From the NCBI RefSeq assembly GCF_902652985.1, contig NC_047016.1, positions 23,126,001-23,190,000 on the forward strand: DNA of 64,000 bases, written 5' to 3'. A program made the position numbers. Position 1 is the stretch's first letter, and each line of letters begins with the position of its first letter. Source of the stretch: Pecten maximus. Its lineage: Eukaryota. Positions 12,001-33,000 of this stretch are shown here, piece by piece.

Positions 12001-15000
12001 ATAAACGACACTTAAAAAGCAGGACGACATTGATACATCTGGTAATTCATCAAGTGGTGTTATAGAGCAAAGTCTTAGATCACGACATTGTATAATTCAT
12101 GTAACACGAACTGTGAACGTGAGATAAGCTATTATCTCCGATTCGTCAACGAAACAAGGGTCGGACTGTGTCTGCCGGTTTGTACGTACCGACAATGGTG
12201 TACACAGTACGATTAGGTCTGATTTTAACCAGCGTAATTGTGCAAGGTATGGTATTTTTTTCTCATTTATCAAAAGGGTAATTAACACTTGCAATAATTA
12301 TTATCATTACTTTGTAAAACGGCTATATCTCGATTGGTACCAAGGATCAGGAAATTTACTTATTTGAGGGCCTGCTTTTACTGTTAACATAGGATCAAAA
12401 TGGGTTGTTTTAATTTCTTAATCCATAGTCAAAACGATCTCAATTAATTTTTTTTGTAAATACATTACAATGATTTTATTTCTTACTTGACATTTCTCGT
12501 AATATGTACCTATTTAAAATATCCATGAAATAAAACTATAATATCGGAACTGTCATACTGATATTCAAAAACAATTTCCGGGCACCATTTTATATATGTG
12601 TGTACAGTGATTATGTTATGACTCACGCCTGTATGTCAATCCGTAATAACGTTTCTGATTCCTTAATCTACAGTGGTCAGAGGATGTCCGAACGGTTGGA
12701 CAGCTTTCAATGATTCCTGCTATTTGATATCCTTTCATAAGGAAGATTGGTCAGCCGCGTCGGTAAATTATAGGACAACTCTAAATATTATTTATATCAT
12801 GTTAAACGACTTCAGATGTTCGAAAATATAATCTTATTTCGTTGCACAAAAATATGTAGTATCAAATATAACTTTACATATCAATATACATTTAACACTG
12901 TAATTTTATTGAAGGGCTGATCGGCCTATCTATCGAATTCATCTTTCACCATAAGTATTATCACCATGGATTGCATGTTCTGTTAATCAGTTTATATATG
13001 ACATGCAGGAAATAAAGAATGCTGATTTTGCACCAATCCATTAACAAATGATTCATTTACAGACTGATTGTCACTCCTACCATGGTTATCTTGCTGAGGT
13101 TTTAGATTCGAACGAGAATAACTTCCTGACTGAATTGGTCACACAATATCAAAGTAGGTTATGTTTCCATGTCTATTAAAATAATAAGATAATCGTTTTA
13201 CAGGAGTGAAATTTCGCTCCTGTTATACTTACAGAGTAAGACGTTTATTTTGTTTATATTTTTCGCATTGTCACCAAGAATGTGTTTAACTTGATATATG
13301 AAGAGATCATTACAATACAGCGGAAGCAGGAATCTTAGTTGCCTCCAGTGATGTAATATAACCATGCCCCTCTATTGTTTAGAACACGAAGACTACTGGT
13401 TGGGCGCTACCGACATATTTGTGGAGGGAGACTGGCGATGGAATGTAAATGGTCAACATTTAAAATACACCAACTGGCAACACGGGGAGCCAAACAATCT
13501 TCACTCCCATGGCGAGGACTGTTTAGCGGCCCACTATAGTAGCTCCCGCGTCCAATGGAGAGATTATGCATGCACGTCGAAACATTATTTCATTTGTGAG
13601 ACTAGGTATGTTGGTAGAACCGTTTTCTTGGAAAAGAACCATAGTAGTTCTCTGTTATAACATGTGTTTTAGAAAGGATAACACGTGTTTGTTATTCGCG
13701 CGTTTTAGGTCTTATTAAGATAAACATATAATTGTTGTTGGAAATAGTTGCATAAATACATGTATTTTCCTGTTTTTATTGCTTACAGGAAAATAAAACA
13801 ATATAAGTTTTAAAATAACCATAATAGACATATATCATGGTACAACTAAATGAAGCTTTATTCGTAACATATGTATTAAGCGAGGTTATCGTCAAAACTG
13901 TGATGTAGTTAACGAGGTTAACGCCAAAACTGTGATGTAGTAAGCGAGGTAATTGCTAACTTTATAGAAACACTGTAATGAGATCGCCATCATAATTATG
14001 AAGTAATTGGTGAGGTCTCCATCATAACTTTGAGTTAGTGACGTCATCATCAGAGCATTGATGTAATTAGTCTGGTTATCAACAGAACAGTGGTGTAGTT
14101 AGTGATGTTACTATCTGAACTGTGATGTAGTTTTTGATGATATCATCAGAACTGTGATTTAGTAAGATTATCTGACCTATGATGTAGTTTGTGGTGTTAT
14201 GATCTGAACTGTGATGTAGTTGTGAGGTTATCATCTGAACTGTGATGTAGTTATTGAGGTTACCATCTGAACTATGATGTAGTTAGTGAGATCATCATCT
14301 GAACTATGATGTAGCTTGTGGTGTTATTATCTGAACTGTGATGTAGTTTGTGGTGTTATTATTTGAACTGTGATGTAGTTTTTGATGTTATCATCTGAAC
14401 TGTGATGTAGTTAGTGAGGTTATCACCTGAACTGTGATGTAGTTTGTGGTGTTATTATTTGAACTGTGATGTAGTTAGTGAGGTTATCATCTGAACTGTG
14501 ATGTAGTTTGTGGTGTTATTATTTGAACTGTGATGTAGTTAGTGAGGTTATCATCTGAACTGTGATGTATTTAGTGAGGTTATCATCTGAACTGTGATGT
14601 AGCTAGCGAGGTTATCATCTGAATTGTGATGTAGTTAGCGATGTTAACATTTGAATTGTAATGTAGTTAGTAAGGTTATTATTTGAACTGTGATGTAGTT
14701 TGTGGTGTTATTATTTGAACTGTGATGTAGTTTGTGGGGTTATCATCTGAACTGTGATGTAGTTAGTAAGGTTATCATCTGAACTGTGATGTAGTTAGTA
14801 AGGTTATCATCTGAACTGTGATGTAGTTAGTGAGGTTATCAACTGAACTGTGATGTAGTTAGTAAGGTTATCATTTGAATTGTGATGTAGTTAGTGAGGT
14901 TATCATTTGATATTGGTGAAGATGTTGGATATAATTACCAAAGTTAGTTGGTAGATTGTATACTGATTACTGCTGTACGCACCATGGTTTTTAAACAGAA

Positions 15001-30000: not shown

Positions 30001-33000
30001 TAGCAAATAACATGTCATCATCAAGACTCATGGTTAGAAATGATACATACTAACAATTGATCAGGCTAATTTTGTCCAATTGTACCAGAGTAGTGATTTA
30101 TATTTTTAGATATCACTAGATTTGCTATTAAGATGACCCTTAAATTTGAAATACAAATAGTTGTTTAAAATCTTATTCTGTTTAATGCAGGGGTAAGAAT
30201 TGACATTGTTGCAGTGCAGTAAGTCAGTTATTTTTTTAAAAACAGGACATTATGATACATCTGGTAATTCATCAAGTTGTGTTATTATAAAACAAAGAAA
30301 TTATATCGTCTGGACATTGTGTTTTCATGGAACATGAACTGCAGAAGTGAGATAAGCCGTTATCTCCGATTCGTCAACGAAACAATAAGGGTCGGACGGT
30401 ATCTGCTGGTTTGTACGAACCGACAATGGTGTACACAGTACGATTAGGTCTAGTTTTAACCAGCGTTATTGTGCAAGGTATGGTAATTATTTCTCATTTA
30501 TCAAAAGGGTAATTAACACTTTTAATGATTATTATCATTAATTCTTTAAAACGGCTATATCCCGATTGGTACAAAGGATCATGAAAATTACTTTTTTGAG
30601 GAATTGCGTTTACTGTTTACATATGATCATTTATTGGAGATTGGATGTGTGAATTAAATGGGTTTTTTTTATTGAATTTTTAATCCATAATCAAAACGAT
30701 CTCAATTCATGTTTTTTTGTTAAAACATTGCAATGATTTTAATTTTTTTTTTAATTGACATTTCCCGTAATATGTACCTATTTAAAATATCCATAAAATA
30801 AACCTATAATATCGGAACTGTGACACTGATATTAAAAAAACAATTTTGGGACACCATTTTATATATGTGTGTACAGTGATTATGTTATGACTCACGCCTG
30901 TATGCCAATCCGTAATAACGTTTCTGATTCATTAATCTTCAGCGATCAGAGGATGTCCGAACGGTTGGACAGCTTTCAATGATTCCTGCTATTTGGTATC
31001 CTTTCATAAGGAAGATTGGTCAGCCGCGTCGGTAAATTATAGGACAACTCTAAATATTATTTATATCATGTTAAACGACTTCAGGTGTTCGAAAATATAA
31101 TCTTATTTCGTTGCACAAAAATATGCAGTATCAAAAATAACTTTACAATTCAATATACATTTAAGACTATAATTTTATTGAAAGGGCGGATCGGCCTATC
31201 TATCGAATTCATCTTTCACCATAAGTATTACTACCATGGATTGCATGTTCTGTTAATCAGTTTATATACGACATGCAGGAAATAAAGAATGCTGATTTTG
31301 CACAAATCCATTAACAAATGATTCATTTACAGACTGATTGTCACTCCTACCATGGTTATCTTGCTGAGGTTTTAGATTCGAACGAGAATAACTTCCTGAC
31401 TGAATTGGTCACACAATATCAAAGTAGGTTATGTTTCCATGTCTATTAAAATAATAAGATAATCGTTTTACAGGAGTGAAATTTCGCTCCTGTTATACTT
31501 ACAGAGGAAGACGTTTATTTTGTTTATATTTTTCGCATTGTCACCAAGAATGTGTTTAACTTGATATATGAAGAGATCATTACAATACAGCGGAAGCAGG
31601 AATCTTAGTTGCCTCCAGTGATATAATATAACCATGCCCCTCTATTGTTTAGAACACGAAGACTACTGGTTAGGCGCTACCGACATATTTGTGGAGGGAG
31701 ACTGGCGATGGAATGTAAATGGTCAACATTTAAATTACACCAACTGGCAACACGGGCAGCCAAACAATCTTCACTCCCATGGCGAGGACTGTTTAGCGGC
31801 CCACTATAGTAGCTCCCGCGTCCAATGGAGAGATTATGCATGCACGTCGAAACATTATTTCATTTGTGAGACTAGGTATGTTGGTAGAACAGTTTTCTTG
31901 GAAAAGAAACATAGTAGTTCTCTGTTATAACATGTGTTTTAGAACGGATAACACGTGTTTATTATTCGCGCGTTTTAGGTCTTAATGAGATAAACATATA
32001 ATTGTTATTGGAAATAGTTGCATAAATACATGTATTTTCCTAATTTTATTGCTTACAGGAAAATAAAACAATGTAAGTTTTAAAATAACCATAATAGACA
32101 TATATCATGGTACAACTAAATGAAGCTTTATTCGTAACATATGTATTAAGCGAAGTTATCGTCAAAACTGTGATGTAGTTAACGAGGTTAACGCCAAAAC
32201 TGTGATGTAGTAAGCGAGGTAATTGCTAACTTTGTAGAAACACTGTAATGAGGTCGCCATCATCATTAGGAAGTAATTGGTGAGGTCTCCATCATAACTT
32301 TGATTGAGTTAGTGACGTCATCATCAGAGCATTGATGTAATTAATCTGGTTATCAACAGAACAGTGGTGTAGTTGTGAGGTTATCTTCTGAACTGTGATT
32401 TAGTAAGATTATCTGAACTATGATGTAGTTTGTGGTGTTATCATCTGAACTGTGATGTAGTTAGTGAGATTATTATCTGAACTATGATGTAGTTAGTGAG
32501 ATTATTATCTGAACTTTAATGTAGTTCGTGATGTTATTATTTGAACTGTGATGTAGTTTGTGGTGTTATTATTTGAACTGTGATGTAGTTCGTGGTGTTA
32601 TTATTTGAACTGTGATGTAGTTATTGAGGTTATCATCTGAACTATGATGTAGTTTGTGGTGTTATTATTTGAACTGTGATGTAGTTATTGAGGTTATCAT
32701 CTGAACTGTGATGAATTTAGCGAGGTTATCACCTGAACTGTGATGTAGTTAGTGAGGTTATCATCTGAACTGTGATGTAGTTTGTGGTGTTATTATTTGA
32801 ACTGTGATGTAGTTAGTGAGGTTATCATCTGAACTGTGATGAATTTAGCGAGGTTATCATCTGAACTGTGATGTAGTTAGCGGGGTTATCATCTGAATTG
32901 TGATGTAGTTAGCGATGTTATCATTTGAATTGTAATGTAGTTAGTGAGGTTATTATTTGAACTGTGATGTAGTTTGTGGTGTTATTATTTGAACTGTGAT

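What the first reader, a model, noticed from the sequence alone, without database searches (positions are those of the whole stretch)
13463..31760. All four combinations of two sites 22 bp apart, one toggling an N-glycosylation sequon
Seen: the K/N site (13465 in gene 3) and the E/Q site (13487) occur as K-E (gene 3), N-E (4), K-Q (5) and N-Q (6). Simple serial duplication cannot give all four types without an exchange inside the 22 bp or a recurrent mutation. The N allele makes an N-Y-T sequon next to the binding loop. Inference: short-tract gene conversion is shuffling loop variants.
Basis: partly seen in the sequence, partly recalled or inferred. Interest (0 to 1): 0.75.

Follow-up and report, generated by a model that had tools for sequence, protein, structure and literature searches.

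The report
Mosaic tandem scallop lectin genes
Four almost identical neighbouring lectin genes of the king scallop do carry all four combinations of two variable amino acids beside the sugar-binding site, but this looks like one of several ordinary exchange junctions spread along a young tandem gene array, not a special shuffling of the binding loop.

Summary
In four 98.7%-identical copies of the last large C-type lectin exon, the codon at 13463-13465 reads K/N/K/N. The codon at 13487-13489 reads E/E/Q/Q. The genes are "perlucin-like" lectins of Pecten maximus, five exons each. N and E are ancestral, and K and Q are derived. The E/Q residue is the first residue of the EPN calcium/sugar motif, so the four genes read EPN, EPD, QPN, QPN. 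The K/N site is not an isolated patch: five intron sites 565-598 bp upstream split the copies the same way. Four-gamete conflicts are not concentrated at the loop. There are six genealogy switches along the about 6 kb unit, one of them only 44 bp wide. A GENECONV-like test finds nothing at this exon. My best reading (about 0.5) is an exchange between paralogous copies, hundreds of bp or longer, whose end falls between the two sites. The rivals are a short patch moving Q, a parallel E-to-Q mutation, and a consensus or polishing artefact in a very heterozygous genome. No reads could be checked. This is ordinary concerted evolution with a modest functional twist.

The parts
12026..37378 (+). Tandemly repeated region of about 6 kb periods. 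It holds four copies of the gene 3' part (g3-g6) and four copies of the downstream/5' part (upstream of g4-g7).
   Evidence: Self-blastn, sliding identity, and block distances.
12195..15058 (+). Gene g3 (K, EPN). Exons: E1 12195-12246, EA 12674-12762, EB 13063-13153, EC 13383-13605, E5 15034-15058.
   Evidence: tblastn of reference protein P0002 and exon matches with AG/GT borders. The EA coordinates are corrected by one base from the alignment.
18114..21188 (+). Gene g4 (N, EPD, plus L>R). Exons: E1 18114-18165, EA 18631-18719, EB 19021-19111, EC 19341-19563, E5 21164-21188.
   Evidence: Exons A through E5 match P0002.
24256..27325 (+). Gene g5 (K, QPN, plus R>H). Exons: E1 24256-24307, EA 24773-24861, EB 25163-25253, EC 25483-25705, E5 27301-27325.
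30426..33300 (+). Gene g6 (N, QPN). Exons: E1 30426-30477, EA 30943-31031, EB 31333-31423, EC 31653-31875, E5 33276-33300.
13463..13465 (+). K/N codon of g3 (AAA). The homologous codons are 19421-19423 (AAT), 25563-25565 (AAA) and 31733-31735 (AAT). N gives the sequon N-Y-T.
13487..13489 (+). E/Q codon of g3 (GAG), the first residue of the EPN motif. The homologous codons are 19445-19447 (GAG), 25587-25589 (CAG) and 31757-31759 (CAG).
   Evidence: The motif position comes from alignment to solved C-type lectin domains.
12867..12900 (+). Five intron A-B sites (12867, 12879, 12880, 12896, 12900) that split the copies as (g3,g5 | g4,g6), the same split as the K/N site.
   Evidence: and the gap-free alignment shown.
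38451..38669 (+). Last large exon of g7, the outgroup paralogue (about 79% amino-acid identity). It carries N-Y-T and EPN.
14033..14910 (+). A 32-bp minisatellite in the last intron of g3. The same array sits at 19984-21036, 26133-27173, 32296-33153 and 38910-40639. It was left out of the site counts.

Best explanation
The window holds a cluster of ten same-strand C-type lectin ("perlucin-like") genes of the scallop Pecten maximus. Genes 3 to 6 belong to a young array of about 6 kb repeats whose copies differ by roughly 1-3%. The array is a mosaic: neighbouring segments of the repeat group the four copies differently. That is the footprint of repeated non-allelic homologous exchange (unequal crossing-over and/or gene conversion) between the copies. 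The K/N-E/Q conflict is one such junction. K arose once and is carried on a haplotype block of at least 600 bp shared by g3 and g5. Q arose once in the ancestor of the sister units g5 and g6, which also share 18 sites in the upstream part of their units. One exchange between g4 and g6, hundreds of bp to about 2.5 kb long, then replaced the block that ends between the two codons. That left g6 as N-Q and g5 as K-Q. Shown: the four combinations, the polarity of both changes, the block structure, and the spread of junctions. Inferred: the order and direction of events, and that the junction is biological and not an assembly product. Functional consequence (inferred from family knowledge): four secreted lectins that differ almost only around calcium site 2. 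Their motifs read EPN, EPD, QPN, QPN, with or without the family's conserved N-Y-T sequon. They probably differ in sugar preference.
For: Searches show the four combinations. One search gives the states in the 10 paralogues. At the K/N position these are N 5, K 2 (g3, g5), T 2 and A 1. At the motif's first residue they are E 7, Q 2 (g5, g6) and D 1. One search gives the states in 11 named scallop/oyster relatives: K in 0 of 11, and E in 9, Q in 1 and D in 1. Both K and Q are therefore derived and g5 is doubly derived. One search shows 6 sites (12867-12900 and 13465) with the split (g3,g5|g4,g6) and 1 site (13487) with the split (g3,g4|g5,g6). One search gives distances in the block ending at K/N: g3-g5 6/657, g4-g6 7/664, g5-g6 15/664. 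Upstream, U5-U6 are the closest pair at 0/404 and 10/1060. One search covers 3486 usable of 6447 columns. It finds 31 informative sites (2/11/18 for the three splits), 6 switches against a mean of 16.5 in shuffles (1 of 100,000 as low), and Rm = 6. One search puts the expected number of parallel-hit sites of the observed type in the 267-bp gap at 0.011. A further breakpoint there has a probability of 0.17-0.37 at the array's own switch rate. One search shows that G<->C changes are only 7 of 54 changes at G/C sites, which makes two independent G>C hits less likely still.
Against: Only one site (13487) carries the conflicting split inside the exon, so everything rests on one base in two copies. 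The GENECONV-like test shows no significant fragment at the exon. The longest perfectly identical runs between copies are at most 592 bp, and the longest lies in the minisatellite. There is thus no fresh conversion tract to point to, and all events look about equally old (about 1% divergence). Q at this motif position has arisen independently in an Argopecten paralogue with QPD (P0004), so recurrence is biologically possible. The copy-to-copy divergence is of the same size as the 1.71% heterozygosity reported for this species (PMC7191990, passages read). A two-unit duplication followed by transfer of Q needs as few events as my scenario. No reads, second assembly or transcripts were available.
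Confidence: 0.5

Rival explanations
1. One reading: a short conversion patch of at most 82 bp (13466-13547) moved Q between g5 and g6 without touching the K/N codon. Such micro-conversion would preferentially reshuffle binding-loop variants.
For: g5 and g6 are identical from 13466 to 13547, bounded by K/N on the left and by g5's own R>H change at 13548 on the right. The segment with the (g3,g4|g5,g6) split is at most 266 bp long in physical order. Four of the five amino-acid differences lie within 13 codons around the motif.
Against: An 82-bp identical stretch is unremarkable where g5 and g6 differ at 15 of 664 sites. The clustering of 4 of 5 replacements is not significant (P = 0.068). Switches are spread over the whole unit, and the permutation test finds nothing at the exon. 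pN/pS for the exon is 0.56, so no positive selection is shown.
Confidence: 0.12
2. Parallel mutation: GAG>CAG happened twice, in g5 and in g6, possibly favoured by selection on sugar specificity. No exchange occurred between the two sites.
For: A simulation gives 4.5-8.8% for at least one incompatible parallel hit somewhere in the 782-bp block. Q at this position evolved independently in an Argopecten paralogue. QPN motifs are reported in several bivalve lectins (PMC12842671, passages read).
Against: The expected number of such hits in the relevant 267 bp is 0.011. G<->C is the rarest class at G/C sites, 7 of 54. A second site with the same split exists at 17926. Two such homoplasies have P = 0.010.
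Confidence: 0.15
3. Artefact: one of the four combinations was created by consensus or short-read polishing, or by switching between the two parental haplotypes, in near-identical tandem copies.
For: The published assembly of this species was built from noisy long reads (wtdbg2). It was polished with Arrow and three rounds of freebayes on linked short reads. Heterozygosity is 1.71%, as large as the copy differences (PMC7191990). I do not know whether the window comes from that assembly.
Against: Informative sites form consistent blocks instead of flipping site by site. All four genes keep intact exons and AG/GT borders. Mis-mapped reads from a neighbouring copy would carry both sites together, since they are 22 bp apart (inference).
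Confidence: 0.2

Closest known systems
Bivalve C-type lectins with variant calcium-site-2 motifs (for example the scallop lectins AiCTL-7 and CfLec-2 with EPD, and AiCTL5 with QPN)
   Same: They have a single C-type lectin domain, are secreted, and carry EPN/EPD/QPN at the same motif position. A review treats motif variability as the main source of functional diversity (PMC12842671, passages and table read).
   Different: Here three motif variants sit in four tandem genes that are otherwise 96-97% identical in the last large exon. No binding data exist for them.
Perlucin of abalone nacre (Haliotis laevigata)
   Same: [quoted passage not shown] The scallop proteins are named "perlucin-like" by NCBI.
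   Different: Perlucin carries C-terminal 10-residue repeats (PMC4019660). The scallop proteins instead end in a short conserved tail encoded by a tiny last exon. Identity to perlucin itself was not measured. That perlucin's sequon is the homologous N-Y-T is my recollection only.
Gene conversion / unequal crossing-over among clustered C-type lectin-like receptor genes of mammals (NKG2 family)
   Same: These are tandem lectin-domain genes whose similarity patterns have been attributed to gene conversion (PMC2195720; search listing and abstract start only).
   Different: They are vertebrate membrane receptors that do not bind sugars through an EPN site. That evidence is of a different kind.
The EPN-to-QPD specificity switch in mannose-binding protein A
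   Same: It affects the same motif position. The scallop exon aligns its EPN with the EPN/EPS/QPD of solved mannose-receptor domains, and mannose-binding proteins are among the hits.
   Different: The classical switch changes both E>Q and N>D together. Here the changes occur singly (QPN, EPD). That the double change swaps mannose for galactose is recalled, not checked here.

Membership tests
C-type lectin domain (Pfam PF00059) | A significant match to the domain profile | tested here: met
   Exon C alone gives E = 6.5e-12 and 46.6 bits against a cut-off of 22.6. Exon B alone gives 17.3 bits, below the cut-off. Exon A, once read in frame, gives only a weak lectin-like hit at E = 0.18. The reference protein P0002 gives E = 4.7e-21 and 76 bits.
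C-type lectin domain (Pfam PF00059) | The conserved cysteine framework and the WIGL-type core | tested here: met
   In the 11-sequence alignment C50, C124, C141 and C149 are invariant, C22 and C33 are nearly invariant, and W83 and D88 are invariant.
C-type lectin domain (Pfam PF00059) | Calcium-site-2 motifs (EPN/QPD-type tripeptide and a WND-type tripeptide) | tested here: met
   The motifs read EPN (g3), EPD (g4) and QPN (g5, g6), with W-R-D downstream. They are aligned with the EPN/EPS/QPD of solved structures. This holds at sequence level only.
C-type lectin domain (Pfam PF00059) | Calcium-dependent carbohydrate binding | not testable with these tools
   This needs recombinant protein and glycan assays.
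Perlucin (nacre protein) proper | C-terminal 10-residue repeats and presence in the shell matrix | tested here: not met
   P0002 ends shortly after the lectin domain with a 7-residue tail. The repeats are described in PMC4019660. Shell localisation is not testable. The name "perlucin-like" is an automatic label.
Interlocus gene conversion / non-allelic exchange in a tandem array | Adjacent segments that support incompatible groupings of the copies, arranged in blocks | tested here: met
   There are 6 switches among 31 informative sites against a mean of 16.5 in shuffles; 1 of 100,000 shuffles was as low. Rm = 6.
Interlocus gene conversion / non-allelic exchange in a tandem array | A statistically supported shared tract at the site in question | tested here: not met
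   In the GENECONV-like test with 5000 permutations, significant runs lie only at 16908-17862 and none lies in exon C.
Interlocus gene conversion / non-allelic exchange in a tandem array | Confirmation of copy-specific haplotypes by single molecules | not testable with these tools
N-glycosylation sequon | N-X-S/T with X not proline, in a protein that enters the secretory route | tested here: met
   N-Y-T is present in g4 and g6, and K-Y-T in g3 and g5. There is a hydrophobic N-terminal exon, modelled as a helix over residues 2-20. That it is a signal peptide is inferred. A second sequon, N-D-S, lies in exon A of g3-g6.
N-glycosylation sequon | The site is actually occupied by a glycan | not testable with these tools
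   This needs glycoproteomics.

The most novel reading that the evidence does not exclude
The scallop uses frequent micro-conversion among tandem perlucin-like lectin genes to recombine binding-site variants. EPN/EPD/QPN would combine with presence or absence of the loop-adjacent glycan into a combinatorial germline repertoire under diversifying selection. This would be a lectin counterpart of other diversified invertebrate immune gene families.
Probability: 0.07. Interest if true: 0.6.

Novelty: new member of a known kind. Interest (0 to 1): 0.3.

Why it matters
If the four combinations are real, this array is a compact natural experiment. It offers four secreted lectins that differ at only five residues, four of them around the calcium/sugar site. 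Among the changes are single-step variants of the specificity motif (EPN, EPD, QPN) and the loss of a family-conserved glycosylation sequon. Expressing the four proteins would show directly what each single change does to sugar preference in a bivalve lectin, a point on which the literature reports conflicting motif-to-specificity rules (PMC12842671). As evolution it is unsurprising, because young tandem arrays commonly show mosaic exchange. It is also a caution. In genomes with about 1.7% heterozygosity, differences between near-identical tandem copies are as small as differences between alleles. Four-gamete arguments drawn from one consensus assembly are therefore weak.

Tried and rejected
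The repeat finder on the whole window was swamped by the 32-bp minisatellite and gave nothing usable. I used blastn and MAFFT in scripts instead.

My first translation was in the wrong frame and was redone. The exon A query was out of frame by one base and was redone in frame.

AlphaFold2 on reference protein P0002 with an 11-sequence alignment gave a mean pLDDT of 70.5, but below 50 over residues 88-120, which is exactly the loop region holding both sites. I drew no structural conclusion about how near the sequon lies to the sugar site, and I ran no fold search. The sequon is 8 residues before the motif in sequence. Spatial closeness stays untested.

Positive selection is not shown. There are 5 replacement and 2 silent changes, giving pN/pS 0.56. 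The clustering of 4 of 5 replacements within 13 of 74 codons has P = 0.068. Exon C is more variable than exons 1, A and B among g4-g6 (7/223 against 1/232, Fisher P = 0.034). An earlier figure of 0/232 was wrong, because exon 1 has one difference.

I looked for fresh conversion tracts as long identical runs. The longest is 592 bp, inside the minisatellite, and none reaches kb scale.

I tried to reconstruct a single simple history, either one two-unit duplication or one hybrid-gene founding event. Neither fits all blocks. The promoter-to-exon-A part of g4-g6 is 9% from g3 and 15% from g7, while the flanks are 1-3% apart.

Three literature searches found no description of this array or of gene conversion in bivalve C-type lectin clusters. 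They were gene conversion, C-type lectin, tandem, bivalve; 4 papers, none on lectin arrays by title/abstract; 1 paper, mouse NKG2; 2 papers, unrelated. This covers only the held open-access library.

Several things were not checked. No second scallop genome, reads or transcripts could therefore be examined. Paper supplements are closed, so assembly details in the supplements of PMC7191990 were not seen.
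Full report
What the window is. The window has no N and is about 31-42% G+C. The stretch in the finding encodes the C-terminal two thirds of a C-type lectin domain (Pfam PF00059, E = 6.5e-12 for this exon alone). A protein search with that exon returned one named reference: "perlucin-like protein isoform X2" of the king scallop Pecten maximus, 159 residues, 96% identical. The window is therefore scallop, not human. tblastn of the exon finds ten such exons, all on the + strand, at 3938, 10201, 13385, 19343, 25485, 31655, 38451, 46346, 54229 and 62049. Five further rows with E of 0.3 or more are noise.

How I searched the gene model. I searched my own gene model exon by exon and left out the step of joining the exons. 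The full-length protein used later is the reference that the database returned.

Gene structure. Mapping the reference protein back on the window and checking borders gives five exons per gene. They are a signal-like first exon, three exons for the lectin domain (A, B, C), and a 25-nt last exon. All have AG/GT borders in g3-g6. The last intron holds a 32-bp minisatellite of about 23-54 copies.

Observation. The four copies of exon C at 13380, 19338, 25480 and 31650 are 98.7% identical to that of g3.

Polarity and meaning of the two sites. Among the ten paralogues, the K/N position is N in 5, T in 2, A in 1, and K only in g3 and g5. The other position is E in 7, D in 1, and Q only in g5 and g6. 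Among 11 named relatives from scallops and an oyster, K occurs in 0, and the second position is E in 9, Q in 1 and D in 1. N and E are therefore ancestral. g4 keeps both, g5 is doubly derived, and the N-Y-T sequon is an old family feature that g3 and g5 have lost. Alignment to solved lectin domains places the E/Q residue on the first position of the EPN/QPD motif of calcium site 2. With g4's private N>D change, the four genes read EPN, EPD, QPN, QPN. EPD and QPN are known variants in scallop lectins (PMC12842671).

Array structure. I aligned the units with MAFFT. Units 4-6, and the 5' flank of unit 7, are 95-100% alike over most of the unit. Unit 3 is alignable only from about 12026. It is 85-96% identical as far as exon A, and 96-100% identical from about 12816 onward. 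Unit 7 diverges to 70-88% from its promoter region onward. There are thus four copies of the gene's 3' part (g3-g6) and four copies of the downstream part.

Four-gamete scan. I left out the minisatellite and all columns within 5 of a gap. That leaves 3486 usable of 6447 columns, with 127 singleton sites and 31 informative sites. The three possible splits have 2, 11 and 18 sites, and they lie in blocks. There are 6 switches against a mean of 16.5 when site order is shuffled, and 1 of 100,000 shuffles was as low. Rm is 6. The switch intervals are 13465/13487 (22), 13487/13732 (249), 15459/15503 (44), 15900/16014 (114), 16791/17444 (688) and 17740/17926 (237 columns). Exchange in the array is therefore well supported, but it is spread along the unit and is not focused on the loop. 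The K/N site shares its split with five intron sites at 12867-12900. In that block g3-g5 differ at 6/657 sites and g4-g6 at 7/664, against 15/664 for g5-g6. Only the E/Q site has the odd split there. A GENECONV-like permutation test (5000 shuffles) finds significant concordant runs only at 16908-17862.

Exchange or recurrent mutation. A simulation on the 782-bp block gives 4.5% (8.8% with half the effective sites) for one incompatible parallel hit somewhere. From the array's own singleton counts, 0.011 such hits of the observed type are expected in the 267 bp between the neighbouring blocks. A further breakpoint there has a chance of 0.17-0.37 at the observed switch rate. G<->C changes are only 7 of 54 changes at G/C sites. 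Exchange is favoured, roughly tenfold under neutrality, but this rests on one site.

A parsimonious history (inferred). g5 and g6 are sister units. They share Q and 18 upstream sites, and differ at 0/404 and 10/1060 sites in two upstream blocks. One exchange with g4 then overwrote the block of g6 that ends between the two codons. A two-unit duplication followed by transfer of Q needs as few events.

Selection. Exon C has 5 replacement and 2 silent differences among g3-g6, giving pN/pS 0.56. Four of the five replacements lie within 13 codons (P = 0.068). Exon C varies more than exons 1, A and B among g4-g6 (7/223 against 1/232, P = 0.034). This suggests relaxed or diversifying evolution of the loop but does not prove it.

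Artefact. The published assembly of this species used noisy long reads with Arrow and freebayes polishing, and the animal was 1.71% heterozygous (PMC7191990, passages read). I do not know whether the window is from that assembly. Copy differences are as small as allelic ones, so a consensus chimera cannot be excluded. The block-wise pattern and the intact genes argue against wholesale noise.

Verdict. This is a new example of a known kind: mosaic exchange in a young tandem lectin array, with motif-level variation in the sugar site. Interest is modest.

Noticed in passing
12195-12246 and 18631-21188: The reference protein P0002 (isoform X2) matches exon 1 of g3 (with I where g4-g7 have V), but exons A, B, C and the last exon of g4. 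The public model therefore appears to splice across two neighbouring genes. This is either read-through transcription or an annotation chimera.
   Followed up: partly
14033-14910, 19984-21036, 26133-27173, 32296-33153, 38910-40639: A G-rich 32-bp minisatellite sits in the last intron of each of g3-g7. Copy numbers run from about 23 to 54, and the arrays show higher-order periods of 64/96/128 bp. The arrays after g4 and g5 are 98-100% alike. The arrays would be useful as anchors for long reads.
   Followed up: partly
37379-37851: Intron A-B of g7 holds about 470 bp that g3-g6 lack. The public protein for g7 (P0005, 117 residues) starts inside this intron's end, so it lacks exons 1 and A, although both are present upstream at 36848 and 37279.
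   Followed up: no
15034-15058 and the homologous last exons: A tiny last exon encodes a short tail ending in W/A-I-x-x-G. The tail is conserved in the aligned C-termini of the scallop relatives, and the final G is invariant in all 11. Its function is unknown.
   Followed up: no
16972-17445: The unit upstream of g4 carries a cluster of 17 private differences in about 470 bp, far more than its neighbouring segments. This may be a patch imported from a more distant copy.
   Followed up: no
3938-4144 and 62049-62255: Other paralogues carry further motif variants. g1 reads EPS and g10 reads DPN at the same position.
   Followed up: no
46346-46546 and 54229-54429: g8 and g9 form a second, older duplicate pair about 7.9 kb apart. 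They have a two-residue deletion after the motif, and several replacements between them in the same loop region.
   Followed up: no
18631-18719 (exon A) and copies: A second sequon, N-D-S, lies in exon A of g3-g6, and g7 lacks it (I-D-S). The K variants are therefore not necessarily unglycosylated proteins.
   Followed up: no
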